Shown here: positions 1-10,255 of the stretch, piece after piece
Layout of the letters: every line of letters starts with the position of its first letter
Numbering within the stretch: the stretch's first letter is position 1
IMG/VR virus record: IMGVR_UViG_3300030333_004442
Location: 1-55,561 of that record
Source of the DNA: a virus
Lineage: Duplodnaviria > Caudoviricetes
Length of the DNA: 55,561 bases
Direction: 5' to 3' (one strand)
Made by a program: the position numbers and the translations under genes
Notes under the pieces: model-generated
The model's database searches: none
The model's input: only the letters and a program-made list of their open reading frames with translations
Told to the model about the DNA's origin: nothing

Positions 1-1849
1 CTCTTCTTACAATCGTGCCATCAGCATCGAGATAATAGAAGCTGTCAGCAGCTACGTTTACCGCAGTGTCAGTAACTCCACTCAAAGTCATCGTTCCCGA
101 AACTGTGGTGTTCGCCGCTTCAAGCTGACCCACGGTGAGTTTGGCAGCAGTACCCGCATTGGACAATACGCCATCAGTTTCTGCAACACCCGTAGCAAGA
201 CGGAAACCCGATGCTGAGTGGTCCCAACCCATGAAGTTGAGAGATGCAGATGAACCATCGTGCTGGTGAATCAACATTCCAATGTCCTTGGTCACTGCGC
301 CGGTTGGAGCAGCCTTGCCGACAGTGCCCATTTCAATGAGAGTGTCATCAAGTTGGATGGTTGTCCCATCTACTTGAAACTGAGCGCCGTTAACAACCAA
401 GTTGCCAGTAACAGTAAGATTGCCTGAAACAGAACCATTACCAGTAATATCTACTCCCGATGTGGTCATATCAATAATCTTAGTCGCACCCGCGTAGAAA
501 TCAATATTATCGTCTGCGGTAGCAAAGTCAATATAAGTATCGCCAGCGGCTCTACCCATCTTGAGATTAGTATTGTAGACTGTTTGAATAGTTGTTTGAG
601 CAGCAGCCACACTAAGTGTAGAACCGCCACCGCCAGCAATACCAGTGCCTTGTGTTGAAAGTCGAAGATTCTCAGAACCATCGTCTTCAAGACCAGTACC
701 AGCAAAGTCCGAAACATCAACTGACAAGACGCCAGCAGTGTCATCAAGACCGTCACCAGACAATTTAGCCGCCATATGGTCGAACGTGATTTTCTTGGTT
801 GGGTCGCCAGACTCAGCTTCCTGAACAATAGCGAAGGTGTCACCAGATGCAATTGCAGTTACTGCGGTCAACTCTTTGAGGTCAACTGCCATGACAGCAG
901 AAGATGCAGACAGACCGACGCCAGCAAAAAGAGTTGCAAGGTCATCAACGGTGTCTTTCTTCGATGAGTTGTCGGTTGAATCGACAAGAGCGAGGAAGTC
1001 ACCAGAAGCAACATCAACAGCACTCAGTTCATGCAAGTCAAGGCTGAGAGCAGAGCCCCCACCACCAGCAAGACCAGTGCCTGCGGCTGCGGCAGCAATA
1101 CGAAGGTTTTCAGAACCATCGTCTTCAAGACCAGTACCGGCAAAATCAGAAACGTCAACTGCCATAACAGCACTTGAAGCCTGAAGTCCGTCACCGGCAA
1201 AAAGAGTTGCAATATCGTCAATGCTCTCTTTCTTGGTTGAGTTGTCAGTTGAATCGACAATAGCAACAAAGTCGCCAGAGGCAATCTGGACTGCGGACAA
1301 CTCATGCAAGTCAAGAGAAATGACCGCTGAAGAAGCAGCAAGCCCGGTTCCTGCGAAAAGAGTCGCAATGTCATCAATGCTCTCTTTCTTGGTTGAGTTG
1401 TCAGTTGAATCGACAATAGCAACAAAGTCACCAGAGGCAATTTGAACTGCGGTCAACTCATGCAAGTCAAGTGCCATGACAGCAGAAGATGCTGAAAGAC
1501 CGACACCAGCAAAAAGAGTTGCAAGGTCGTCAATAGTATCTTTATGAGTGCCGTTGTCGGTGCTATCGACAAAAGCCAAGAAATCGCCGCTGGCGATTTG
1601 CTCATGTACAAGCTCATTGAGGTCCACAGAAAGGACACCAGAAGCCGAAGCAAGCCCGACGCCAGCTACGTCAGACTTGAGCATAGCAGCTTCGATAACG
1701 CCGTCGCTGCTCATGTAGTGAAGTTGTGCCGTGTCGCCTTTACGCATTACAAGGTCATAATCCCCTCCACTTGGAACATCGGCAGAAGCCGAAGATGAAG
1801 AGAGAGTCGGTTTTGCTAAATCCGCTCCCAATATTTTTTGATTAGCCAT
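1..1849 (-). CDS. Repeat-rich tail/capsid fibre protein (partial, >616 aa, runs off the left edge)
   Basis: Not in the ORF track because it has no stop in the window. Manual translation from ATG 1849 (SD GGAGG at ~1860-1864) gives MANQKILGADLAKPT... with no stop down to base 2. It contains ~52-aa repeats (LDLHELSAVQIASGDFVAIVDSTDNSTKKESIDDIATLFAGxGL), AGTGL-type beta-spiral motifs and a GNLTVTGNLVVNG fibre motif. Confidence 0.85.
   Translation of the reverse strand, partial: MANQKILGADLAKPTLSSSSASADVPSGGDYDLVMRKGDTAQLHYMSSDGVIEAAMLKSDVAGVGLASASGVLSVDLNELVHEQIASGDFLAFVDSTDNGTHKDTIDDLATLFAGVGLSASSAVMALDLHELTAVQIASGDFVAIVDSTDNSTKKESIDDIATLFAGTGLAASSAVISLDLHELSAVQIASGDFVAIVDSTDNSTKKESIDDIATLFAGDGLQASSAVMAVDVSDFAGTGLEDDGSENLRIAAAAAGTGLAGGGGSALSLDLHELSAVDVASGDFLALVDSTDNSSKKDTVDDLATLFAGVGLSASSAVMAVDLKELTAVTAIASGDTFAIVQEAESGDPTKKITFDHMAAKLSGDGLDDTAGVLSVDVSDFAGTGLEDDGSENLRLSTQGTGIAGGGGSTLSVAAAQTTIQTVYNTNLKMGRAAGDTYIDFATADDNIDFYAGATKIIDMTTSGVDITGNGSVSGNLTVTGNLVVNGAQFQVDGTTIQLDDTLIEMGTVGKAAPTGAVTKDIGMLIHQHDGSSASLNFMGWDHSASGFRLATGVAETDGVLSNAGTAAKLTVGQLEAANTTVSGTMTLSGVTDTAVNVAADSFYYLDADGTIVRR
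660..1680 (-). repeat. Intragenic tandem repeats of the fibre gene (156-nt unit A plus ~60-nt unit B)
   Basis: A 56-nt identical stretch occurs at 1218-1273 and 1374-1429 (period 156 nt = 52 aa). A 29-nt identical stretch occurs at 672-700 and 1110-1138 (within the VDVSDFAGTGLEDDGSENLR unit). Unit order in the protein is approximately A-A-A-B-A-A'-B. Confidence 0.95.
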
Positions 1850-1881
1850 AATTTTTTTTCCTCCCGAATGATATCAATTAT

Positions 1882-1916
1882 GAAAAGAACGCAGTCCGTT
1901 TCCGAATGTGCGTTCT
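1882..1916 (-). terminator. Stem-loop in the fibre-gene 5' region (terminator-like or 5'-stabilising hairpin)
   Basis: Minus strand reads AGAACGCA-CATTCG-GAAA-CGGAC-TGCGTTCT-TTTCAT: an 8-bp perfect outer stem, an inner stem capped by a GAAA tetraloop, and a short U-tract. Confidence 0.55.
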
Positions 1917-1919
1917 GGA

Positions 1920-1929
1920 GTAATTAGTT
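1920..1929 (-). promoter_or_regulatory. Putative late promoter motif ACTAATTA
   Basis: Matches the recurring CTA(T/A)TTA motif found in intergenic gaps upstream of structural genes. Confidence 0.5.
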
Positions 1930-1963
1930 TGAAATTATGCTAAAATCGGGGGGTATCGGTCAG

Positions 1964-2344
1964 CTAGTTGCCAATAACCACTGTATATGCCGTTGCAGAA
2001 TCTGTAGTGTCGAAAAAAAATTTAATTTTATTTGCATACCGTATTGAAGGGACTTGAATCACTTGGTCGTTAGAATCGAAGACCTGATAGATGATGCTTT
2101 TTGTCCCTAAATTGTGTGTCAACTCGTATTCACCGTTTCCTATTGGGACTTCGATTGAATGAGTCACAAACTCTTGAGCGCGGTCGCTGGCTGCACCGAG
2201 GTCTACTTCTTCACCACTGCGCTTTATTACGATTATGGAGCCATTGACAATTTTAATGTCTTGAAGAGCTTGACGGTCAATACCACCGCCACCCCCAGTA
2301 ACATTCTTTCCAGTCGAGCCGCCTGAATTTTTACCCGTTGACAT
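1964..2344 (-). CDS. Small structural protein with fibre-type C-terminal THNLG domain
   Basis: ATG 2344 lies 8 nt after AAGGAGG. The C-terminus YELTHNLGTKSIIYQVFD...YTVVIG resembles the small beta-sandwich modules common at phage fibre termini. Confidence 0.6.
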   Translation of the reverse strand: MSTGKNSGGSTGKNVTGGGGGIDRQALQDIKIVNGSIIVIKRSGEEVDLGAASDRAQEFVTHSIEVPIGNGEYELTHNLGTKSIIYQVFDSNDQVIQVPSIRYANKIKFFFDTTDSATAYTVVIGN

Positions 2345-2361
2345 AGCCAATACCTCCTTGG

Positions 2362-3135
2362 CTAACCAACACCATCCGAATTAGAAGTTGAGATTGGCCA
2401 AATCTTCGTCAAGTTGCTATCAACATTCGCAGCAGACTTCTTAGTTGACTGTACACCGTAAGGCTTATCAAAGCCTTCGTGGTCAAGCACTGCTGTAACC
2501 AGAATTGAAACAGCGTCCAAGGCATTCGCAGCAGCACCGACTTGAAGCCCAGCCGTCGTGTTTCCACCACTGCCGTCGCCTGCAACATCTGTAAAGATTG
2601 TCGAACCCGCAAAGTTTTGAATTAGGATAAAGACACCCTTGGTTCTTGCATTAATTGTTGCAGTGTCGCCGCGACCGATTTCAATAAAGTTACCATTAGT
2701 GATTGGCTGCATTGTATCTGTACTAGACGTGGGAACCCCATTGGCATCCAAAGCGGTCACAACCTGACCCGGTGCAGTGAGCATAACCTTCAAGCGGATA
2801 TTGTTGTTTGCAGTAGCAGCGGCTGTATTGTCCACAGCCCTTTCTGCTGCTTCCAACTGAACAGAAAGTGTTCTGGTGGTTGCTGGGAATTCAACAAAAA
2901 GAAGTTCGCCTTCGTCACCACCAGCGCCTGCGTTCCAAGCTTTTCTATCGCCATCGGTTTCAGAACCATCTGTGCGAAAGGACACGTTTCCGCTACTGTC
3001 AATGGCGCAAGTAAGCCCATCGGCGGGCGGCGAGCCTGTCGCTGTACCATCTATTCTCGTAATTCTTCTAATATAAGGCTTACCTGTTGCCAACCCTGTT
3101 GCGGAGACACCGCCTAATACAAAACTTCTTGCCAT
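2362..3135 (-). CDS. Hypothetical virion protein (Gly/Ala/Thr/Asp-rich, possible decoration protein)
   Basis: 257-aa ORF with SD GAGG, preceded by the ACTATTTA motif; beta-rich structural composition. Confidence 0.6.
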   Translation of the reverse strand: MARSFVLGGVSATGLATGKPYIRRITRIDGTATGSPPADGLTCAIDSSGNVSFRTDGSETDGDRKAWNAGAGGDEGELLFVEFPATTRTLSVQLEAAERAVDNTAAATANNNIRLKVMLTAPGQVVTALDANGVPTSSTDTMQPITNGNFIEIGRGDTATINARTKGVFILIQNFAGSTIFTDVAGDGSGGNTTAGLQVGAAANALDAVSILVTAVLDHEGFDKPYGVQSTKKSAANVDSNLTKIWPISTSNSDGVG

Positions 3136-3162
3136 TTTTAAATCCTCATGTTGAGCTTACCT

Positions 3163-3172
3163 TTAAATAGTC
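3163..3172 (-). promoter_or_regulatory. Putative late promoter motif ACTATTTA
   Basis: gACTATTTAa on the coding strand, ~28 nt upstream of ATG 3135. Confidence 0.55.
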
Positions 3173-3185
3173 AGATAAACCCAAA

Positions 3186-3449
3186 TTATCTTCTCATTTT
3201 TCTCATTCTTGCTTCGCGCTTCAGCTTGCGCTTCAATGCTCGATAAGCCTCGCTTCTTCTGCGGCGTGCTGCTTGGTCCTGCTTGTGCTTCTTTTTCAAA
3301 CTTTTCTTTGAAACTTGCCGACACTCTGGAGTCCCATGAACGGGGTCTTTAATCTCGTCCATCGCTTTTGAATTACGCTGCTTTCTCAAGAAGCGTCGGA
3401 TGACTTGCTCGCTTGATTCGCCTCGCCTTGCTCTTACATACAATCCCAT
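3186..3449 (-). CDS. rpsU: Phage-encoded 30S ribosomal protein bS21 homolog (divergent)
   Basis: VRARRGESSEQVIRRFLRK...MDEIK...KKSLKKKHKQDQAARRRR follows the bS21 pattern (V.V...ES.E..LRRFK.....EI.....KPS..RK.K...A.RR). It is very basic and sits in the head module, as is typical of phage bS21. Confidence 0.8.
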   Translation of the reverse strand: MGLYVRARRGESSEQVIRRFLRKQRNSKAMDEIKDPVHGTPECRQVSKKSLKKKHKQDQAARRRRSEAYRALKRKLKREARMRKMRR

Positions 3450-3451
3450 AA

Positions 3452-3925
3452 TTATTTCTTACCACCTTCTGCCAATTTCTTCCAGACGCCACCAAGCTGT
3501 TCTGTAAGGGAATCAATATTTACACCGGGGTCAGACGGGTCAACCCCACTAAATGGACCTTGACTTGAGGGACCACCTGAAGGGGTGCCACCAGATTTGA
3601 GAGGGGTTGTCCCTTCAAACAAATCAACGCCATTGTAAGCTCCTTGACCAATCGAATCCAAAAGATTCTTTTTTGTCTTCCGAAGCTCTGCTCTTTTCTG
3701 TTCTGCTGCCCGCTGAGAATTCTTATTTTCATTTGTTCTCACGCGAGCGGGGGCGGGCGCAGGCTCAGAAGCTCTCGCTTCTGTAATAACGGCTTGGTTC
3801 CCAGCTACAACACCTTGCACCACCTCTGCGATAATTGAACTAAGTAAGCCGCTCTCATATAGCGACTCTTTAATGCACTCTTTGACAATCGGCTTCAGCA
3901 TCTTTTTCAATTCGTCTTTTTTCAT
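3452..3925 (-). CDS. Hypothetical head-module protein
   Basis: 157-aa ORF between protease and bS21. The N-terminus MKKDELKKMLKPIVKECIKE is followed by several I/L-x-E sites. Confidence 0.75.
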   Translation of the reverse strand: MKKDELKKMLKPIVKECIKESLYESGLLSSIIAEVVQGVVAGNQAVITEARASEPAPAPARVRTNENKNSQRAAEQKRAELRKTKKNLLDSIGQGAYNGVDLFEGTTPLKSGGTPSGGPSSQGPFSGVDPSDPGVNIDSLTEQLGGVWKKLAEGGKK

Positions 3926-3926
3926 C

Positions 3927-4529
3927 TTAGTCCTCGACTATCTCGTTCAACAAACGATTAATCTTATCTGCCTTTGTAAAAATGTTTGGCTGCTTGTTCT
4001 CCTTCATCATATACGCACCTTGCGTAGAAGGCTCCGATACGAAATCAAAACAAATAAGCTGGAAATCGTCCTCAACCACGGTCGAGCCAGCGTCCTCATG
4101 GACGGAGCCAAGACCACGGGATGAAATCCCCAGCTTCACACCAGAATCAACAAGAGAGCGGAGAATCTGACCCGATGGAGTATCAAGCACCTTGACCTTG
4201 CCCATCACATCATTACCATTCCACCAAACCTTCGTCACCATGTGAGAAGCGTTCTTCAAATTAATAACAGAATCTTCTGGGTGGTCAAGCTCACCAAGGG
4301 CGCGGTTTTCTTGGACCAGTTTTGCATAGTTTCCCAACTCACGGTCAAGCACCCGCTTAGGGTACACTCTGCCGTTGCCATTTTCAGCGTCTGCTCGCTG
4401 CATGACACCTGTCAAATACATGGCTCCGTTCTGAATCTCGACCTTCTCCGACTCGGTTAAAAAGTCTTGGCAGACTCCACCTTCGCAAAGCTCATAATAT
4501 TCCCTTAGAAGTAATTTGTTATCGCTCAT
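3927..4529 (-). CDS. gp21: Prohead core protease (T4 gp21-like)
   Basis: Hallmark motifs NGNGRVYP, ALGELDHP, ASH, DTPSG, GISSRGLGS and DFVSEPS. Confidence 0.95.
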   Translation of the reverse strand: MSDNKLLLREYYELCEGGVCQDFLTESEKVEIQNGAMYLTGVMQRADAENGNGRVYPKRVLDRELGNYAKLVQENRALGELDHPEDSVINLKNASHMVTKVWWNGNDVMGKVKVLDTPSGQILRSLVDSGVKLGISSRGLGSVHEDAGSTVVEDDFQLICFDFVSEPSTQGAYMMKENKQPNIFTKADKINRLLNEIVED

Positions 4530-4824
4530 TCTTATTTGCCCTCTCTTTTAGACGCTCCCTAACGAGTGGAGCCTTTTGCATGTCTTTAAATAGGCTCTTT
4601 TCCACCCAAAGGACTTTTATGGGCGAACGATAAACATTAGCTTCTTCTTTTGAAACACCGATAGCGTGCCACGCATCCGAACCTTGCCAACCCATGTTGA
4701 CACAAGTGAACGAACCCTCCGAAACGAATTCTCGCTTCTCATGCGGATACCAAAAATTGTAATGACCAGCCTGAGATGGTCTAATTTTCGCACCGGCTGG
4801 AACTCTATATTTTTCTGAAGGCAT
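4519..4824 (-). CDS. Hypothetical protein (in frame with upstream Cys-Cys peptide ORF)
   Basis: 101-aa ORF with purine-rich SD AAGGAAGAGG; its end overlaps the protease start. Confidence 0.65.
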   Translation of the reverse strand: MPSEKYRVPAGAKIRPSQAGHYNFWYPHEKREFVSEGSFTCVNMGWQGSDAWHAIGVSKEEANVYRSPIKVLWVEKSLFKDMQKAPLVRERLKERANKNER

Positions 4825-4849
4825 TGCCTCTTCCTTTTTAAATTTAAAT

Positions 4850-4876
4850 TTAGCGGGCGCAACCCGCCCGAGCTAA
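4850..4876 (-). other. GC-rich RNA hairpin containing/following the UAG stop of the small ORF
   Basis: Minus strand TTAGC-TC-GGGCG-GGTTG-CGCCC-GCTAA, with an alternative stem GCGGG-TTGCG-CCCGC. There is no U-tract directly after it on either strand, so it is not a typical intrinsic terminator. Confidence 0.65.
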
Positions 4877-4968
4877 GAGCCCTTGCAGCATCGGCGTACT
4901 GGTTGAAGCATCCACTTGCCAGTCATAGCGTCAGCCAAATCATTCATCATCTGCACAATCAACGACAT
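4873..4968 (-). CDS. Unannotated 31-aa peptide MSLIVQMMNDLADAMTGKWMLQPVRRCCKGS
   Basis: A perfect AGGAGG (4977-4982) lies 8 nt before ATG 4968. The ORF overlaps the end of the upstream membrane gene and is below the ORF-track size cutoff. Confidence 0.7.
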   Translation of the reverse strand: MSLIVQMMNDLADAMTGKWMLQPVRRCCKGS

Positions 4969-5284
4969 TTTGGCAACCTCCTAAAAATTTGTGTTCTACT
5001 TTGAATCCACAGTCACCAAATACCATGCTCAACGCATATGACGTTCCTGAACTCAAGCAACCAAGCAAAAATCCAGTCACAGGACTGTAGTCATAAGTAA
5101 ATAGTTGTGTTTGATTATTTGCCCCCCACAAAATCACTCCAACCCAAAAGCCAAGGCACATGGGGCAGTGAAATAACTCTCCCAATTTGCCTTTGGTCGG
5201 GCGTATCCGGTCAAAAATACTTCCGTATACTAAAATCTGTGTTAACCCATAAGCAGCAGCAACGAAAGTTACCAATTCAATCAT
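4940..5284 (-). CDS. Small membrane protein with CxxC (DUF1360-like)
   Basis: Likely start MIELVTF at 5284 (SD GAGG). It has three hydrophobic segments and the motif LGELFHCPMCLGFWVG, typical of DUF1360-like proteins. Confidence 0.7.
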   Translation of the reverse strand: MIELVTFVAAAYGLTQILVYGSIFDRIRPTKGKLGELFHCPMCLGFWVGVILWGANNQTQLFTYDYSPVTGFLLGCLSSGTSYALSMVFGDCGFKVEHKFLGGCQNVVDCADDE

Positions 5285-5879
5285 TGTCGCCTCGCCGCTT
5301 GGACTCATACACTCTATAATAAGATTTCATCGCAGGGAACACATCGACACTACCCTTCTCGGCTGAGTGTGGAACATCGCCCAACTCAGTCTGGTCTGGC
5401 TCTTGTGGCTCCGTAAGTCTCCGCGTCAACTCAGCCTCAAGCGCAACATCATGTGCATAATAAGGCTCTTCTTCTTTTAAAAACTTTCCAATCGTGAATA
5501 GCACGATATCATCAGCATTACCTCCGACTTGCGTATCGGGATACTTACCCTGCATCGAGCCATAGACATTACCAGAGTGAACCGAGTCTTCAACAATCAC
5601 GCCCTTCTTTCTTAAAAAATTAAAAAGCCTGTCTTGTGCGCCATAGACCTCATCACACATCTCGTTCTTCGGCATCGCAAGAATCTTTCGGCTGGCAGGA
5701 ATGACCACAATATCCAAATCATAATGGTCATTAATTGCGTAATCACCACTCATGGTTTTCCGCATATCCAATTCTAATTTTGGTGCTGGTGGGGGTGGCG
5801 GTCCTTGGTCGCCAATCGGCTCTCCGCGCCTTACTTTTTCGGCGTCATCGCCAACTGCAATCTGAATACCTTCAGCCAT
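5277..5879 (-). CDS. Hypothetical protein
   Basis: Likely start MAEGIQ at 5879 with GGAGG; ~200 aa, acidic, with a proline tract. Confidence 0.7.
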   Translation of the reverse strand: MAEGIQIAVGDDAEKVRRGEPIGDQGPPPPPAPKLELDMRKTMSGDYAINDHYDLDIVVIPASRKILAMPKNEMCDEVYGAQDRLFNFLRKKGVIVEDSVHSGNVYGSMQGKYPDTQVGGNADDIVLFTIGKFLKEEEPYYAHDVALEAELTRRLTEPQEPDQTELGDVPHSAEKGSVDVFPAMKSYYRVYESKRRGDND

Positions 5880-6720
5880 TTTGTTCAACCTCCCTTACCA
5901 ACTCTTGAATCTTCAGAATTTTCTTAATTTCCGTCTCAGTCAGCGGAGTCTTGTGTAGAGAATCTAAATATTCTACAACCCGCTTGGCATTGGTCAGCAT
6001 CCGCGTATCCTTGCGGATTTCATCAAGCTCATATGACTGCTTCACGGCTTCGCGGAGGCGGTCCACTTCTTCATTCAAGTAAGATTTAAGGCTAACACCA
6101 TTGTCCGAAATTGAATAGACGAATCTGGTTAGCACCTCTCTTTGTTCGTCCTGCAAGTGCTGCGAATATTGCTCATTAAACTTGGTTGCGAAAGTCTTAT
6201 AAACAAGATTGTCGATGGGCTCCATCGGCTTATCTTCTGGCTTCGCAACTGTCTTAACAATCATCGTTTCCATCAGCGTATCTTCCAAAAGAACCGTTTT
6301 CTTAACTGTGGTTGCATCAGAAAATAACTGAGCAATACTGGCAAGGTTTTTATAGTTTGGCACGAAATTTGCATACACATCGCTACCCAAATTATGATTA
6401 ATCTTGCGAATCAAGTCAGACTGCTCGTTGAACACTCTCTTAGAATTCAACTTCGATGCCTGATGCCGAGCCTCAATTATAATTCTTCTAGCCACATCCT
6501 CAGTAACTTCTTTTGTTTCACTAATTGCTTTATAAAGCTGTAGCTCTTGATAAAGGGCTGTGTCTTTGGCGAAGTGCTGTTTGATAATCTGAGCTACGGT
6601 TGCTTGCCGCCTTGTGTCCTTGCTCAAAACACACTTTGCCATCTCTTTAATCAACGCTTCAAATAAAAAAGCGGTGTTTCTCTTCTTATTGTGTCGATAT
6701 CGACCTGTCTTTGTTGCCAT
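5872..6720 (-). CDS. Hypothetical alpha-helical head-module protein downstream of portal
   Basis: 282-aa ORF with HNKKRNTAFLFEAL N-terminus, immediately after portal. Confidence 0.75.
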   Translation of the reverse strand: MATKTGRYRHNKKRNTAFLFEALIKEMAKCVLSKDTRRQATVAQIIKQHFAKDTALYQELQLYKAISETKEVTEDVARRIIIEARHQASKLNSKRVFNEQSDLIRKINHNLGSDVYANFVPNYKNLASIAQLFSDATTVKKTVLLEDTLMETMIVKTVAKPEDKPMEPIDNLVYKTFATKFNEQYSQHLQDEQREVLTRFVYSISDNGVSLKSYLNEEVDRLREAVKQSYELDEIRKDTRMLTNAKRVVEYLDSLHKTPLTETEIKKILKIQELVREVEQNG

Positions 6721-6726
6721 CTTCTT

Positions 6727-8661
6727 TTATTCCTCTAGCTTGCTGTTTAAGCCATCAATCAGATTTTGAACTTCCTGTGACGAAAGCTCCCGATTAACTT
6801 CAAAAAGAAGTTTTTCATCGTCCTCACCGTAAATAGTTTCTGAAATCCCTTTTGATAAAGAAACTAAATCACCCAAACCCTTGAAAGTGTTCTGGGTTGT
6901 GTTTTGTGTGCTGTCATACGCCCACTTTGAACGGATAGAGCGTTTGCGTGCGCCCATATCTCTTGTGTCGTCTGTGACCTTGGTGTACATCTTCCCATTT
7001 GCGCCGGGGGTCGTATATGTCTCTCGCTTCGCGGGTGCCGCCAGAAGGTCGCCTGTCTCTGGCTCTTCTTCACCACCTTCTTCATCGCCGCCTCCAAGGT
7101 CACCGCCAAGACCACCGCCTTCGTCGCCGCCTCCAAGCTCATCACCGCCGCCCATGTCGCCGCCTTCAGCGCCACCAGCTTCTTCTTCGACCGGCTCATC
7201 TTCTTCGGCTGCTTTCTCAAGCTGTGCCTCAAATTTCTTATCATAGAACATTTCACGCTGTACTCGCAGCACCTCTTCTTCAGAGAGAGCAAAGATGTTC
7301 CGATAGACCCACTGCTTGGAGAAGTAGCCTTCTGTTGCCGCCCCTGCAACGTCAAACTTGGTGCGGAGATGTTCAAGCTCCTGCATCGCAGCAATCTGAG
7401 ATGGATTATTTAATTTCAGTTGAAAGGCAACGAGGTCGTCGCCTCGATAACCAAGAGTGTAAAGATGAATAATCCCAATCTTCTCAAGCTCGGCTACCAC
7501 TGAGCGTTGGAGCCTTTGAATTGTGCGAGCGAATCGAATATCTTTCTGAGCAAGAGTTGTCTTGTCCTCATCCGCTCCTTCACCACGGGATAGATACGAT
7601 TGCGGCACTTTGAGGGCTGCGAACAGCTTATCTCGCAGATATTTAACATCGTCAATATCTCCAGTGTAGCTTCCACCGGGCAGAGATTCAATTCTGGATG
7701 ACTCTCCACCACGAACGGGAATAAAGTAATCCTCGTCAATGCTCATTGGGTTGTATCGAAGGTCTACTCGCCCGGTTGAGCTATCCACAACCTGTGAACG
7801 CTTCATCTGAGTCATAACCTTCTGCATGTACTGCTCAACATCTTGTGGTGCGATGTTTCCGATATCAATATAGAACGCACGGCGCTCTGGAGAGCGTGTA
7901 ATACGATAGCTCATCATCGCATCTTCAAGGAGGTGCAACTGACGCCAGATGCGACGGGCTGGCTCCAAAATAGATGTACCATAGGGTGCGTACCGGTCGT
8001 TCCCCAAAATACGGAAATGGGCAACCTGCCAATTTTCAAAAGTCAGACCAGCAGAGTTCCACTGAAACTGGACATAGTTTGGATTGGTCGGGTCTTCGCC
8101 CTCAAGCCGCTCAACCTCTGCAACTGGCATGGGTACGAATGATTTGACGCCTGTAGTTTCATCAATATCGACATACAGAAAATAATCACCATACTTGCAC
8201 ATTGTACGACACCAGCCATACAAGTTGAAGTCGATGTTCAAAACATTTTTATAAAGCGTGAGAAGCGTACCCTTAATTTCTTCATTAACACACTCAATAT
8301 TAATGATGGGCTTCAACTCATTATGATACGTCATCTCATCGGCGTAAATATCCAATGCTGATGCAATAATGGGCTCGTATTCCATCTGGTCAAAGTCAAC
8401 ATACCGCTCATTCCTGAGCCGGTTGTTCATCGCCTCGGAAGTAATCTGCTCAAACGGATTATAGTGCGTTTTCTGGAATTGTTTACCAGAAGCAGACACA
8501 AATCGGGTCGCGTAATTGTCGAGCGCCTTTCTTCTAAATTTTCTTCGGTTCTGTTGTCTACGATTTACAATAGGACCAGAGAACAACCTTGTAAGCCTCT
8601 TGAAAAGTGCCGATTGTTCATTCTTGATGTTCTGATTATTGTTGATGTTGTCGTCAGCCAT
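6727..8661 (-). CDS. gp20: Portal vertex protein (T4 gp20-like)
   Basis: Motifs ALDIYADE, PYGTSILEPARRIWRQLHLLEDAMMSYRITRSPERRAFYIDIGN, EDYFIPVRG, IESLPGG, DDVKYLRDKLFAALKVP and DIRFARTIQRLQ; acidic Gly-rich C-terminal tail. Confidence 0.95.
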   Translation of the reverse strand: MADDNINNNQNIKNEQSALFKRLTRLFSGPIVNRRQQNRRKFRRKALDNYATRFVSASGKQFQKTHYNPFEQITSEAMNNRLRNERYVDFDQMEYEPIIASALDIYADEMTYHNELKPIINIECVNEEIKGTLLTLYKNVLNIDFNLYGWCRTMCKYGDYFLYVDIDETTGVKSFVPMPVAEVERLEGEDPTNPNYVQFQWNSAGLTFENWQVAHFRILGNDRYAPYGTSILEPARRIWRQLHLLEDAMMSYRITRSPERRAFYIDIGNIAPQDVEQYMQKVMTQMKRSQVVDSSTGRVDLRYNPMSIDEDYFIPVRGGESSRIESLPGGSYTGDIDDVKYLRDKLFAALKVPQSYLSRGEGADEDKTTLAQKDIRFARTIQRLQRSVVAELEKIGIIHLYTLGYRGDDLVAFQLKLNNPSQIAAMQELEHLRTKFDVAGAATEGYFSKQWVYRNIFALSEEEVLRVQREMFYDKKFEAQLEKAAEEDEPVEEEAGGAEGGDMGGGDELGGGDEGGGLGGDLGGGDEEGGEEEPETGDLLAAPAKRETYTTPGANGKMYTKVTDDTRDMGARKRSIRSKWAYDSTQNTTQNTFKGLGDLVSLSKGISETIYGEDDEKLLFEVNRELSSQEVQNLIDGLNSKLEE

Positions 8662-8668
8662 TTATTAT

Positions 8669-10255
8669 CTACCCCTTAAATAAGCTCGGAAATTCTTTCA
8701 TTAATTCTTCAGTCTGCTTTGCTTCCGCTTCATACTTCGTGCCACTATATCCTATCATACCTGATATCTTTGTGTTAAGTGTTGAATTCGTCTTTGTCAT
8801 AGCGTTCATAAAAGCCTTTCTGTACTCTGTATCCCTCTGATTGGAAACCAACGCCGTATCTCTCACCCAACATCCGATTGCCATCGACATAACAAGGTCA
8901 TCGTTATATCCCTTCATCGCTTCGGGCTTCCCGTTGTTCCACACAAAGGTTTTTAATTCATTATATAGTCTTGAGGACTTGACAGTAATTAGGTCGTTCC
9001 GCACAAACTCTTCCAGCTTTGCGATAATAAGCGGTCTGGTCTTCATCGAGGTGGTGAAACCCGGCACGGCATTTGACTGACTTCTGGCAGCATATGACTC
9101 CACATACTCATGGCTTCCCTTGGTGGAATAATATAAATTCGTATACTGCATATCCTCCAGCTTGGTCAACACGGCATATCCAACATTGTTGTTCTCAACC
9201 ACTATCATAGCGTTCCCAAACTGCTTGCCCGTATCGGAAAGAAACATGGCATACATATCCAACTCGACCTTGCCCTGATATTCGGCAACCTGTGTCATAT
9301 CTGTAATATCAATAACGTGAAATGCAGAATAATCACGACCATCACCTCTCGCTACGTCAGCCACCAATAAATATGAATGTTCTGGGTCGTATTCATCCCA
9401 CAGCCACAGGTTCCTATCAAAGCCCGCACGATGGCGCGGTGTTTGAACGATGCCCTCCATCTTCACAATATCATCTGGATGAATGACCGTCTCACCAGAC
9501 ATGTTGAAGTTACATTCTAACTCTTGAGCAACCTGCCTGCGGGACATATTCTTGGTTTCATTTTCAAACCATGCCAAGTCTCTATCAGGATGCACATCCC
9601 AAGGGAGCTTTGTCGGATAGAAATCATTTGACTGTTCCTCTGCGCCGACATAGGCTTGGTGGAACCAGTTACCAACACCATTAGGGGTGGAAAGGGCGAT
9701 ACACCGACCACCAGTTGACAGCGTTGGGTACAGACCTGTCCACAGTTCTTCAAGCCCATCGACGTGTGCTGCCTCGTCAATTACAAGAAGCGACAACGCC
9801 TCTGAACGACCAGCATCGGCACTAGTAGAAGATGCCTTAATCTGTGAGCCGTTGGTCAACTCAAACGATGTGCGGTTATCAACATTAATGCTTGCAATTC
9901 TAATCCAGTCTGGCAAATGCCGCATAATGTTTTTAACTTTCTTAACGAGGTTGGCTGCTGTACCGAACTTCGTCGCCATGACCAACACGTTCTTATCTCG
10001 GTGGAACAGCATCATCCAAACAACATAGCCCGCAGTGATGGTAGAGATACCAAGCTGGCGAGCCTTTAAGATTACATTGAAGCGATGGTCATTGAAGTCA
10101 CTAAGCAGTTGTTGCTGAAAGTCATAAGTCCGAAATGGAATCAGCCCGTGCATCGGGTGTGAAATTTTAGCGTAATTGTTTAAAAAATAGGTCGGGTCTT
10201 TGCCGCACTGGACAATCTCTTTCAGCATCTGTTGTTTCGTTAGTGGGTAAGACAT
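8669..10255 (-). CDS. terL: Terminase large subunit (T4 gp17-like)
   Basis: ATPase motifs LKARQLGIST, LLVIDEAAH and ALSTPNG; QELECNF; RNase H-like nuclease motifs LVADVARGDGRDYSAF, VENNNVG and NDDLVMS. Confidence 0.95.
   Translation of the reverse strand: MSYPLTKQQMLKEIVQCGKDPTYFLNNYAKISHPMHGLIPFRTYDFQQQLLSDFNDHRFNVILKARQLGISTITAGYVVWMMLFHRDKNVLVMATKFGTAANLVKKVKNIMRHLPDWIRIASINVDNRTSFELTNGSQIKASSTSADAGRSEALSLLVIDEAAHVDGLEELWTGLYPTLSTGGRCIALSTPNGVGNWFHQAYVGAEEQSNDFYPTKLPWDVHPDRDLAWFENETKNMSRRQVAQELECNFNMSGETVIHPDDIVKMEGIVQTPRHRAGFDRNLWLWDEYDPEHSYLLVADVARGDGRDYSAFHVIDITDMTQVAEYQGKVELDMYAMFLSDTGKQFGNAMIVVENNNVGYAVLTKLEDMQYTNLYYSTKGSHEYVESYAARSQSNAVPGFTTSMKTRPLIIAKLEEFVRNDLITVKSSRLYNELKTFVWNNGKPEAMKGYNDDLVMSMAIGCWVRDTALVSNQRDTEYRKAFMNAMTKTNSTLNTKISGMIGYSGTKYEAEAKQTEELMKEFPSLFKG

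What the first reader, a model, noticed from the sequence alone, without database searches (positions are those of the whole stretch)
4519..4982. Hidden Cys-Cys peptide ORF whose UAG sits in a hairpin and is in frame with the next gene: candidate programmed stop-codon recoding
Seen in sequence: an unannotated ORF (AGGAGG, ATG 4968) encodes MSLIVQMMNDLADAMTGKWMLQPVRRCCKGS and ends in TAG (4875-4873). The same frame continues without a stop (LGRVAPAKFKFKKEEA) straight into MPSEKYRV... (4824). The TAG forms the base of a GC-rich stem-loop (TTAGC-TC-GGGCG-GGTTG-CGCCC-GCTAA) that lacks a terminator U-tract, followed by the palindrome TAAATTTAAATTTA. Established: bacterial SECIS elements and several read-through signals are stem-loops immediately 3' of the recoded stop. 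TAG ends many other genes here (e.g. 1964, 2362, 8669, 10264), so genome-wide recoding is excluded. Inference: this could be site-specific read-through or Sec/Pyl-like recoding after a CCxxS redox-like motif, or a leader-peptide/structured-RNA element gating translation towards the prohead protease. Caveat: frame coincidence is about 1 in 3, and the downstream ORF has its own SD.
Basis: partly seen in the sequence, partly recalled or inferred. Interest (0 to 1): 0.8.

Follow-up and report, generated by a model that had tools for sequence, protein, structure and literature searches.

The report
Conserved phage micro-gene with terminal hairpin
The hidden reading frame is a real, strongly conserved tiny phage gene that ends at an ordinary stop codon in front of a conserved RNA hairpin, and comparison with relatives gives no support for programmed reading of that stop into the next gene.

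Summary

Comparison of 164 distinct related loci rejects recoding.
- The same codon is TAA in 33, TAG in 56, TGA in 40 and a sense codon in 35.
- The frame to the next gene is at chance: 20 of 63 in frame, 8 of them open.
- Nothing is conserved beyond the hairpin.
- Close strain variants carry frame-breaking indels between hairpin and ATG.

Two things are real.
1. A micro-protein gene of 16-47 codons. Its 14-residue core, KWMLQPVR.CCKGS, is under clear protein-level selection. It almost always follows a DUF1360-like membrane-protein gene and usually precedes the prohead protease. Sporadic stand-alone bacterial homologues exist.
2. A single-copy RNA hairpin (5 bp plus U·G) set 5 nt after codon 15, with compensatory changes at 4 of 5 pairs. 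It is constrained as nucleotides, not as codons.

The hairpin most likely marks the 3' end of the micro-gene as a leaky terminator or stabiliser.

One oddity remains. The base after the stop is C in 113 of 129 loci, against 72 of 1079 for other genes. A termination-pause device is therefore not excluded.

The parts
4940..5308 (-). Upstream gene: a three-helix membrane protein with an HCPMC motif (weak DUF1360 match). Its 3' end overlaps the start of the micro-gene.
   Evidence: Pfam DUF1360, E 1.8e-4. PHROG 781, unknown function. 117 relatives in IMG/VR. Alignment A3 shows invariant C48/C51. This gene lies upstream of the micro-gene in 160 of 164 loci.
4977..4982 (-). Shine-Dalgarno sequence AGGAGG of the micro-gene, 8 nt before the ATG.
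   Evidence: Read directly. Kept in the closest relatives.
4873..4968 (-). Micro-protein gene: 31 codons plus TAG.
   Evidence: Homologues in 164 distinct loci. 73 clusters in the protein library.
4876..4917 (-). Conserved 14-codon core, KWMLQPVRRCCKGS.
   Evidence: W, P, C10 and G13 are invariant in 164 of 164 loci. All six Leu, Ser and Arg codons are used. Entropy is 0.46 / 0.43 / 1.37 bits at codon positions 1 / 2 / 3.
4873..4875 (-). TAG stop codon ('codon 15').
   Evidence: At this position relatives have TAA 33, TAG 56, TGA 40 and sense 35. On a tree there are at least 33 changes of stop identity and at least 17 stop/sense changes.
4868..4872 (-). 5-nt spacer CTCGG of fixed length. The C at 4870 is invariant. 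The C at 4872 is the base that follows the stop.
   Evidence: No gaps and C18 invariant in 96 of 96 rows. The base after the stop is C in 113 of 129 loci, against 72 of 1079 background stops.
4853..4867 (-). Conserved RNA hairpin: GCGGG / loop TTGCG / CCCGC (5 bp plus a U·G closing pair).
   Evidence: Compensatory changes at 4 of 5 pairs, in 28 cells. RNAalifold predicts the same helix and no other. Single copy in the window and in a complete 184-kb relative.
4825..4852 (-). Variable spacer holding the AT palindrome (4852-4839) and the SD AAGGAAGAGG (4836-4827) of the next gene.
   Evidence: Not alignable among relatives; its length varies from 12 to 39 nt in the same gene arrangement. Indels at 4835, 4839, 4845 and 4851 in strain variants.
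4519..4824 (-). 101-aa gene of unknown function, with its own SD and a conserved N-terminus. It is not part of the micro-gene.
   Evidence: Relatives start at the same Met. No Pfam or PHROG match. It follows the micro-gene in 10 of 164 loci.
3927..4529 (-). Prohead protease (T4 gp21 type, S77). In most relatives this is the gene directly after the micro-gene.
   Evidence: Peptidase_S77, 1.4e-32. PHROG 207. First recognised downstream gene in 124 of 164 loci.

Best explanation
The 31-codon ORF is a genuine micro-protein gene of an uncultured marine T4-like phage. It is translated from its own strong ribosome-binding site and ends at TAG by ordinary termination. The GC hairpin 5 nt further on is a conserved RNA structure that belongs to the 3' end of this tiny gene. 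It most likely acts as a leaky intrinsic terminator or 3'-end stabiliser, descended from the terminator that ends the same gene in cellular homologues. The translating or terminating ribosome must melt it. The open frame into the 101-aa gene is a coincidence of this one genome.

Shown: the ORF is coding, the hairpin is an RNA structure, the stop codon varies, and frame and tail are not conserved. Inferred: what the hairpin does, and what the peptide does. The peptide is probably a linear motif that binds a partner; the partner is unknown.
For: **The ORF is coding.**
- Strong three-base periodicity in the core (0.46 / 0.43 / 1.37 bits).
- All synonymous codons are used, including both Ser codon boxes.
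- A canonical SD is present.
- 164 distinct loci and 73 protein-library clusters carry the family.

**The stop is ordinary.**
- Codon 15 is TAA 33, TAG 56, TGA 40 and sense 35.
- The near-identical loci L090 and L156 differ by TAA versus CAA.
- There are at least 17 stop/sense changes on the tree.
- All three stops end other genes of the window, and it has no tRNA gene.

**There is no conserved fusion.**
- 20 of 63 stop-plus-hairpin loci are in frame with the next gene, and 8 of these are open.
- Of the 7 stop-type loci followed by the 101-aa gene, only the window is open in frame.
- Strain variants carry net -1 indels in the spacer.

**The hairpin is constrained as RNA, not as codons.**
- 4 of 5 pairs show double changes.
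- In the 33 loci where the ORF runs through the hairpin, Arg18 is CGG in 31, whereas Arg8 is CGG in 1 of 33. Pro21 is CCC in 26, whereas Pro6 is CCC in 2.
- The third positions of codons 16, 18 and 20 never vary, and everything after codon 22 is random.

**Link to transcription termination.**
- 33 of 96 hairpins are followed by at least 5 T in 8 nt, against 5.6% of control windows.
- Bacterial homologues L233, L234, L241 and L242 carry long canonical terminators after the same ORF. In L233 and L242 the next gene is convergent, so the ORF there is a stand-alone gene.
Against: - The window's own hairpin lacks a proper T tract and is not called by the terminator scan. Two thirds of the hairpins lack one.
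- The next gene starts 12-29 nt after the stem in 79 of 92 loci. An efficient terminator there would cut off essential head genes.
- L168, L180 and L189 carry a second, canonical terminator right after the hairpin, which suggests the hairpin alone does not terminate well.
- The stem sequence is conserved well beyond what pairing needs: GCGGG/CCCGC in 61 of 96, an invariant C three bases before the stem, and a U...G loop frame. The spacer never changes length. A plain terminator does not explain these.
- The base after the stop is the poorest one for termination far more often than in other genes.
- No RNA data were available.
Confidence: 0.72

Rival explanations
1. Programmed recoding of the TAG (read-through, or Sec/Pyl-like insertion) joins the micro-protein to the 101-aa protein, stimulated by the hairpin.
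For: In the window the frame is open from the TAG to ATG 4824. A hairpin follows the stop at a distance typical of recoding stimulators (the distance rule is recalled knowledge). In 9 of 164 loci codon 15 is TGT, i.e. Cys. The protein library holds a few fused forms with Q at codon 15 that run into the downstream gene: P0012, P0016, P0023, P0030 and P0040.
Against: The stops are TAA 33, TAG 56 and TGA 40, so no single suppressor, Sec or Pyl system fits. The frame to the next gene is at chance, and only 1 of 7 loci with the same downstream gene is open. Strain variants shift the frame. The downstream gene has its own SD and a conserved N-terminal Met. The window has no tRNA gene. The fused library forms are expected from rare stop-to-Gln changes in loci that happen to be in frame. 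Their DNA could not be read.
Confidence: 0.02
2. The micro-ORF is a cis-acting regulatory leader. The conserved nascent peptide, a deliberately poor stop context and the hairpin at the mRNA entrance pause the ribosome at codon 14/15. Ribosome occupancy then decides whether the hairpin forms, gating transcription or translation of the head genes behind it.
For: Conservation sits in the last 14 codons next to the stop, while the N-terminus varies from 2 to more than 20 residues. The spacer length is fixed, and the stop is followed by C in 113 of 129 loci against 72 of 1079 background stops. TAA is under-used: 33 of 129 against 648 of 1079. Among the 61 loci with no hairpin of any kind, only L099 also lacks a stop at codon 15. 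In 36 of 50 hairpin-less loci the protease ATG lies 2 nt after the stop. The core is modelled as coil.
Against: Bacterial homologues L242 and L233 are followed by a terminator and a convergent gene, so nothing downstream can be gated there. RNAalifold finds no alternative (antiterminator) pairing. In 35 loci the ORF runs on for 7-17 codons, so a stall at the stop is not universal. The link between stop and the C that follows it is not shown to be independent of descent: 6 supported pairs, median p 0.25. The second Cys moves between positions while at least two Cys are kept, which looks like a property of a finished peptide.
Confidence: 0.16
3. The stop is leaky by design and yields a second isoform with a short C-terminal extension (7-33 residues through the hairpin), equivalent to the 35 relatives in which the codon is sense.
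For: A poor stop context is conserved. The sense-type relatives show that the extended peptide is tolerated. The hairpin keeps one fixed frame relative to the ORF in all 96 loci.
Against: The extension is not conserved as protein: Arg18 becomes Gln, Pro or Gly through compensatory stem changes, and the sequence after codon 22 is random. The distance to the next stop varies from 7 to 33 codons with no preferred end. The 61 loci without any hairpin have no comparable tail.
Confidence: 0.06
4. The hairpin is a sequence-specific binding site, an operator for a phage RNA-binding protein or for the basic micro-protein itself, rather than a generic terminator.
For: The stem sequence, the C three bases before it and the U...G of the loop are conserved beyond what pairing needs. 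The motif occurs once per genome in a complete 184-kb relative and in an 85%-complete 155-kb relative. It sits 12-29 nt upstream of the next start in 79 of 92 loci.
Against: No candidate binder was identified. Loop positions 2-3 vary freely. Seven stem variants are tolerated. Bacterial homologues have unrelated hairpin sequences. 61 loci do without any hairpin.
Confidence: 0.12

Closest known systems
Intrinsic (Rho-independent) terminator or 3'-stabilising hairpin at the end of a small gene
   Same: A GC-rich short stem directly after, or overlapping, the end of the ORF. One third of the copies have a T-rich tail. Cellular homologues of the ORF end in canonical terminators.
   Different: The window's copy and two thirds of the others lack a U tract. 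The next gene follows within 12-29 nt. Stem sequence, spacer length and one flanking C are conserved far beyond what a terminator needs.
Leader-peptide attenuators (trp or pyrBI type; recalled knowledge)
   Same: A very short ORF whose end lies at or inside a hairpin, so that ribosome position decides whether the hairpin folds. Essential genes lie behind it.
   Different: No alternative antiterminator pairing was found. The peptide is conserved as a whole sequence rather than carrying a run of one regulatory codon. In two bacterial homologues no co-directional gene follows.
Phage T4 gene 60 translational bypass element (recalled knowledge)
   Same: T4-like phage; a conserved nascent peptide, then a stop codon, then a small stable hairpin at that site.
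   Different: There is no matched take-off and landing codon: codon 14 uses six Ser codons, as well as Cys and Ala. The downstream genes have their own start and SD. The coding gap is not conserved.
Bacterial SECIS-directed selenocysteine insertion, and pyrrolysine UAG decoding
   Same: A stop codon followed closely by a hairpin. Some homologues have Cys at the aligned position (9 of 164).
   Different: The stop is not tied to UGA or UAG: TAA 33, TAG 56, TGA 40. The sequence after the hairpin is not coding. No tRNA gene lies in the window.
PeSL promoter/stem-loop motifs of T4-like phages (PMC4122927, abstract read)
   Same: A conserved stem-loop in T4-like genomes at a point where the neighbouring gene content differs between relatives. 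Homology between related contigs breaks at the hairpin's 3' end, and three different gene families follow it.
   Different: PeSLs are described as composite terminator/promoter sequences in the hyperplastic regions. This motif is single-copy per genome and sits in the conserved head-gene block, attached to a coding micro-gene.

Membership tests
Protein-coding small ORF | Three-base periodicity of variation and free use of synonymous codons | tested here: met
   Entropy is 0.46 / 0.43 / 1.37 bits at codon positions 1 / 2 / 3 of codons 2-14. Six Leu, six Ser and six Arg codons are used.
Protein-coding small ORF | Start codon with a ribosome-binding site | tested here: met
   AGGAGG lies 8 nt before ATG 4968. 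Bacterial homologues have AAGGAGG-type sites.
Selenocysteine recoding (bacterial SECIS) | The recoded codon is UGA in the gene and its orthologues | tested here: not met
   The window has TAG. Relatives have TAA 33, TAG 56, TGA 40 and sense 35.
Selenocysteine recoding (bacterial SECIS) | The reading frame continues as a conserved protein after the codon | tested here: not met
   No coding signature in codons 16-22 and random sequence after codon 22.
Selenocysteine recoding (bacterial SECIS) | tRNA-Sec and SelB available | not testable with these tools
   No tRNA gene in the window. The record is a 31%-complete fragment and the host is unknown.
Pyrrolysine decoding | The UAG is specifically conserved | tested here: not met
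   TAG in only 56 of 164 loci. TAG ends TerL and other genes of the window.
Programmed stop-codon read-through | The extension downstream of the stop is conserved in frame and in sequence | tested here: not met
   20 of 63 loci in frame, 8 of them open. The next stop lies 7-33 codons away. Indels occur in strain variants.
Programmed stop-codon read-through | A conserved leaky stop context | tested here: inconclusive
   C follows the stop in 113 of 129 loci against 72 of 1079 background stops. Only 6 phylogenetically independent pairs are available, p about 0.25.
T4 gene 60-type bypass | Matched take-off and landing codons, and a resumed ORF without its own start | tested here: not met
   Codon 14 is variable. 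The downstream genes have their own SD and ATG with conserved N-termini.
Intrinsic terminator | GC-rich stem-loop | tested here: met
   5 bp plus U·G, with covariation.
Intrinsic terminator | A U tract directly after the stem | tested here: not met
   The window's copy is not listed by the scan. In the family, 33 of 96 have at least 5 T in 8 nt.
Leader-peptide attenuator | Alternative antiterminator/terminator pairings | tested here: not met
   RNAalifold on 96 sequences of 68 nt finds only the single hairpin. The sequence further upstream was not folded.
Leader-peptide attenuator | The regulated gene lies downstream on the same strand | tested here: inconclusive
   Met in the phage loci. Not met in the bacterial homologues L242 and L233, where the next gene is convergent.
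PeSL motif of T4-like phages | Several copies per genome in variable regions | tested here: not met
   One copy in the window, one in a 100%-complete 184-kb relative and one in an 85%-complete relative.
Known RNA family (Rfam) | Match to a covariance model | tested here: not met
   No match near the gathering score in 3500-6500.
Known protein family (Pfam, NCBIfam, PHROGs, PDB) | A significant profile match of the micro-protein | tested here: not met
   No hit. In one search the best E among 121 members is 0.031. In one search the best E is 0.065, a short chance-level word match.

The most novel reading that the evidence does not exclude
The micro-ORF, its unusually poor stop context and the fixed-distance hairpin form one ribosome-directed module. 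In this reading a 14-residue nascent peptide, conserved from marine T4-like phages to sporadic Patescibacteria and Bacteriovoracaceae genomes, slows termination at codon 15 (or elongation, where that codon is sense). The paused ribosome then controls folding of the hairpin, and with it the output of the head-morphogenesis genes. That would be a new arrest-peptide family acting at a stop codon.
Probability: 0.12. Interest if true: 0.8.

Novelty: new member of a known kind. Interest (0 to 1): 0.42.

Why it matters
Programmed recoding would have been striking, but the comparison shows the stop is ordinary, so the finding as first framed is not remarkable.

What remains is still useful. The locus holds a micro-protein family of 16-47 residues, too short for most gene callers. 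It is absent from Pfam, NCBIfam, PHROGs and the PDB. Its core is nearly invariant across more than 160 distinct marine T4-like phage contigs, and it sits beside the portal-protease head module.

It comes with a single-copy, sequence-conserved RNA hairpin and an atypical stop context. Both can be tested directly with reporters, toeprinting and 3'-end mapping.

The locus also shows how a hairpin placed in frame after a stop can look like a conserved peptide extension.

Tried and rejected
**Searches that found nothing**
- Cultured-phage collection: no DNA or protein match for the region, the 101-aa protein, the membrane protein or the peptide.
- The nearest cultured phages by protease are under 60% identical. 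They have no homologous micro-ORF beside the protease.
- Rfam: nothing.
- ESM Atlas: no usable neighbour.
- Literature: three full-text searches found no description of this micro-ORF or hairpin. Only listings and abstracts were seen, plus the outline and abstract of PMC4122927.

**Tests without a usable answer**
- Complex prediction of the micro-protein with the upstream membrane protein returned 'no answer'. It counts neither for nor against binding.
- Sequencing runs: no RNA holder was listed, so no transcript ends could be examined.
- AlphaFold model of the 31-aa peptide: an N-terminal helix (residues 2-18), with the conserved core as coil at pLDDT 56-71. Not informative about function, and no fold search was made.

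**Ideas considered and dropped**
- A frameshift joining the membrane protein to the peptide. The peptide frame has a stop just upstream and its own SD.
- Gene 60-type bypass and RF2-type frameshift. There is no matching or slippery codon.
- A T-arm or tRNA-like origin of the hairpin. The loop is 5 nt, not 7.
- Likeness to ribosomal proteins S21 or L36. This was recalled only, and no Pfam match appeared among 121 members.
- A weak word match to Shiga toxin B-subunit chains in the PDB profile search (E 0.065-0.3). It is not significant and was not followed.
It is not kept in relatives.
Full report
**1. The observation**

On the minus strand, ATG 4968 opens a 31-codon ORF. It encodes MSLIVQMMNDLADAMTGKWMLQPVRRCCKGS and ends at TAG 4875-4873. 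AGGAGG lies at 4982-4977, 8 nt before the ATG.

The same frame reads on without a stop (LGRVAPAKFKFKKEEA) into ATG 4824 of a 101-aa ORF.

Directly after the TAG lies CTCGGGCGGGTTGCGCCCGC (4872-4853). It is unique in the window. The AT palindrome follows at 4852-4839.

Contigs of three runs cover the TAG and the hairpin, and no difference is listed there among the rows shown. So the stop is in the DNA.

The window is a 55.5-kb virus record, 31% complete by CheckV. It has no tRNA gene. All three stop codons end its long ORFs: TAA 18, TGA 12 and TAG 7 of 37 on the coding strand.

The neighbourhood is a T4-type head module:
- large terminase, 8669-10255
- gp20-type portal, 6727-8661
- two unknown genes
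- a DUF1360-like membrane protein, 4940-5308, which overlaps the start of the micro-ORF
- the micro-ORF
- the 101-aa gene
- the S77 prohead protease, 3927-4529

**2. Relatives**

The cultured-phage collection holds no relative of this region. The protease is under 60% identical to any cultured phage.

IMG/VR holds many relatives.
- A search with the 101-aa protein found 4 loci.
- A search with the membrane protein found 117, of which 80 were kept.

After collapsing identical 90-nt segments and dropping 7 spurious motif hits, 164 distinct loci carry the family. Five further loci were cut off by a contig end.

**3. The ORF is a gene**

Across the 164 loci W2, P6, C10 and G13 never change. M3, L4, Q5 and R8 are kept in more than 90%.

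Variation sits at third codon positions: entropy is 0.46 / 0.43 / 1.37 bits at codon positions 1 / 2 / 3. All six Leu, Arg and Ser codons are used, and Ser14 switches between the TCN and AGY boxes. That pattern means selection on the protein, not on an RNA.

The N-terminal part varies from 2 to more than 20 residues. The shortest forms have 16 residues in all.

The second Cys moves (CC.GS, CK.GC, CK.GCC), but at least two Cys are kept.

A profile of 138 peptides finds 73 clusters at E up to 0.001 among 1.84 billion representative proteins. Most are 30-58 aa, and a few are plainly unrelated repeat proteins.

No Pfam, NCBIfam, PHROG or PDB family matches.

The AlphaFold model gives an N-terminal helix, with the conserved core as coil.

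**4. Synteny**

The DUF1360-like membrane-protein gene lies upstream in 160 of 164 loci. That count includes loci found only through the peptide pattern.

The first recognised downstream gene is:
- the protease in 124 loci
- a family beginning 'MKITK..LKQIIKEE' in 25
- the 101-aa family in 10
- something else in 5

**5. The stop codon**

The codon aligned with the window's TAG is TAA in 33 loci, TAG in 56, TGA in 40 and a sense codon in 35. The sense codons are ATA 11, TGT 9, ATG 4, AAA 2, AGT 2, TAT 2, CAA 2, AGA 2 and AGG 1.

L090 and L156 are identical over the stretch shown except for TAA versus CAA.

A FastTree of the membrane protein was built from 146 of the 164 loci; the other 18 lacked enough upstream sequence. 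On it, parsimony needs at least 17 stop/sense changes and at least 33 changes among the three stops. The tree rests on about 100 residues, so these counts are rough.

No single suppressor, Sec or Pyl mechanism can serve three different stops in close relatives.

**6. The frame to the next gene**

Among the 63 loci with both a stop and the hairpin, the next recognised gene is in frame in 20, which is the one-in-three expected by chance. The frame is open in 8.

Among the 7 stop-type loci followed by the 101-aa family, 2 are in frame and only the window itself is open.

In those relatives the spacer between stem and ATG measures 12 to 39 nt. The 101-aa protein begins at the same Met with its own SD.

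Two close strain variants in the runs carry indels at 4835, 4839, 4845 and 4851. The net change is -1 in each.

The window's open frame is therefore a coincidence.

**7. The hairpin**

Ninety-six of the 164 loci have, exactly 5 nt after codon 15, a 5-bp stem, a 5-nt loop (U-N-N-Y-G) and the return arm.

Seven fully Watson-Crick stem versions occur: GCGGG/CCCGC (61), GCAGG/CCTGC (10), ACGGG/CCCGT (7), GCGGT/ACCGC (3), GCCGG/CCGGC (3), GGGGG/CCCCC (2) and GCGGC/GCCGC (1). The remaining nine hairpins have a G·U pair in the stem.

Counting on the gap-free alignment A1 gives double-sided changes at 4 of 5 pairs, in 28 cells. No shuffle out of 500 reaches the covariation score, and slid registers pair in 39-53% of cells. 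The rows were chosen for full pairing, so the 100% paired figure is by construction. The double changes are not.

RNAalifold, run independently on 68 nt, predicts this helix plus a U·G closing pair (94 of 96) and nothing else.

By eye, seven more loci have a different hairpin at the same place: L026, L108, L177, L188, L192, L083 and L148.

Most of the other loci have no intergenic space at all. The next start lies 2 nt after the stop in 36 of the 50 hairpin-less loci where a start could be assigned.

**8. Is the hairpin coding?**

Read in frame, the hairpin spells L-G-R-V-A-P-A. In the 33 sense-type loci it really is translated. That is why it looks like a conserved peptide extension.

The constraint, however, is on nucleotides.
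- In those 33 loci Arg18 is CGG in 31, whereas Arg8 in the same loci is CGG in 1.
- Pro21 is CCC in 26, whereas Pro6 is CCC in 2.
- The third positions of codons 16, 18 and 20 are invariant, the reverse of a coding pattern.
- From codon 23 on, all three positions are random at 1.5-1.8 bits.
- Compensatory stem changes turn the 'Arg' into Gln, Pro or Gly.

So the tail is a passenger of the RNA structure.

**9. What the hairpin does**

*For a role in termination*
- At least 5 T occur in an 8-nt window directly after the stem in 33 of 96 loci, against 5.6% of 480 control windows taken inside neighbouring genes. By type this is 26 of 63 stop-type and 7 of 33 sense-type loci.
- Cellular homologues point the same way. 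A pattern scan of the species-genome collection gave 25 stretches.
  - Eight are phage-like contigs in marine MAGs.
  - Three are real small ORFs in cellular contexts: L217 and L223 in contigs titled Saccharibacteria MAGs, and L231 in one titled Bacteriovoracaceae.
  - The other 14 lack the family's features, which is about what chance predicts for this pattern by my own estimate.
- A profile search found the ORF in 3 of 301 genomes sampled from the phylum of one of these.
- Each of these ORFs has a strong SD. Each is followed by, or overlapped by, a long hairpin. In L233, L234, L241 and L242 this is a canonical terminator with a T run.
- In L242 and L233 the next gene is convergent. There the ORF is a stand-alone tiny gene with its own terminator, not a leader.

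*Against an efficient terminator in the phages*
- The window's copy has no T tract and is not called by the scan.
- The next gene starts 12-29 nt after the stem in 79 of 92 loci.
- L168, L180 and L189 carry a second, canonical terminator right behind it.

*Unexplained by either view*
- The stem sequence is strongly conserved.
- The spacer has a fixed 5-nt length.
- A C three bases before the stem is invariant in 96 of 96 loci.
- The motif occurs only once, both in a complete 184-kb genome and in an 85%-complete 155-kb genome.

*My reading.* It is a transcript-level punctuation mark inherited from the gene's terminator. It now acts as a leaky terminator, a processing point or a stabiliser, and may have an added sequence-specific role.

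**10. An oddity worth keeping**

The base after the micro-ORF's stop is C in 113 of 129 stop-type loci. After the stops of 1079 distinct ORFs of at least 150 aa in the same loci it is C in 72.

TAA makes up 33 of 129 stops here, against 648 of 1079 in that background.

By recalled knowledge from E. coli, C in this place gives the weakest termination.

The family is related by descent. Only 6 well-supported independent stop/sense contrasts exist, with median p 0.25, so selection is not shown.

Three facts together keep a minority reading alive, in which peptide, weak stop and hairpin form a ribosome-pausing module:
- conservation is confined to the 14 codons before the stop
- the hairpin sits at a fixed distance
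- among the 61 loci with no hairpin of any kind, only L099 also lacks a stop at codon 15

The stand-alone bacterial homologues and the 35 sense-type loci speak against it.

**11. Comparison with known systems**

- It is not SECIS or Pyl recoding, because the stops are mixed.
- It is not read-through of the known viral kind, because no extension is conserved.
- It is not gene 60-type bypass, because there are no matched codons and the downstream genes have their own starts.
- It is not a PeSL as described in the abstract of PMC4122927, because it is single-copy and sits in the core head block.
- It is not in Rfam.

It works most like a small gene with a terminal hairpin.

Three literature searches found no description of it.

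**12. Limits**

- No RNA data were available.
- The complex prediction with the membrane protein gave no answer.
- The contig look-up for library proteins was closed. So the DNA of the fused forms with Gln at codon 15 (P0012, P0016, P0023, P0030, P0040) could not be read.
- Supplements of papers were not consulted.
- Organism names of MAG contigs are those of the record titles, and binning errors are possible.

**Verdict**

The sequence observation is correct and the recoding interpretation is not supported. The locus is a new, strongly conserved micro-protein gene with a conserved terminal RNA hairpin. Interest is moderate.

Noticed in passing
window 4940-5308 (-), and alignment A3: The membrane protein upstream of the micro-gene has an invariant GELFHCPMC.GFW motif at the predicted cytoplasmic end of its second helix. 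It partners the Cys-Cys micro-gene in 160 of 164 loci. Both are of unknown function, and a shared metal or thiol site is conceivable.
   Followed up: partly
L195 (IMG/VR locus), second motif hit: This locus holds a second copy of the peptide core with an internal stop (KWMLQPVRRC*KGS*) besides the intact one. It may be a decayed duplicate.
   Followed up: no
library proteins P0017 and P0062: GC-rich, apparently bacterial predicted proteins contain two tandem units of the peptide core, about 18 residues each. In P0070 and P0071 the core is followed by sequence that reads like a translated tRNA gene. Their DNA could not be inspected.
   Followed up: no
L234 (contig titled a Saccharibacteria MAG), oriented positions about 1300-3300: The bacterial homologue of the micro-ORF, with its terminator, sits directly upstream of a DnaG-type primase gene that is followed by a 431-aa ORF. 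By recalled knowledge, many bacteria place rpsU in that position.
   Followed up: partly
window 4617-4922 (-): A 101-codon stop-free frame overlaps the 101-aa gene in another frame and starts inside the micro-ORF. It has no support in relatives and is probably a by-product of codon usage.
   Followed up: no
window 4853-4914, runs X1, X2 and X4: Summed contig depth rises about fourfold over the peptide core and hairpin, and many contigs of other phages align only there. Their homology ends at 4852/4853. This 60-nt block is the most widely shared sequence of the region in those samples.
   Followed up: partly
PP395634.1 (L207) 3565-3792: One of the nearest cultured relatives by protease, a Microcystis phage, carries an annotated ribosomal protein S21 gene two genes after its prohead protease.
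   Followed up: no
window 5872-6720 (-): A 282-aa ORF between the portal and the head genes gives a sub-threshold match to Glyco_transf_61 (E 0.0019, below the Pfam cut-off).
   Followed up: no
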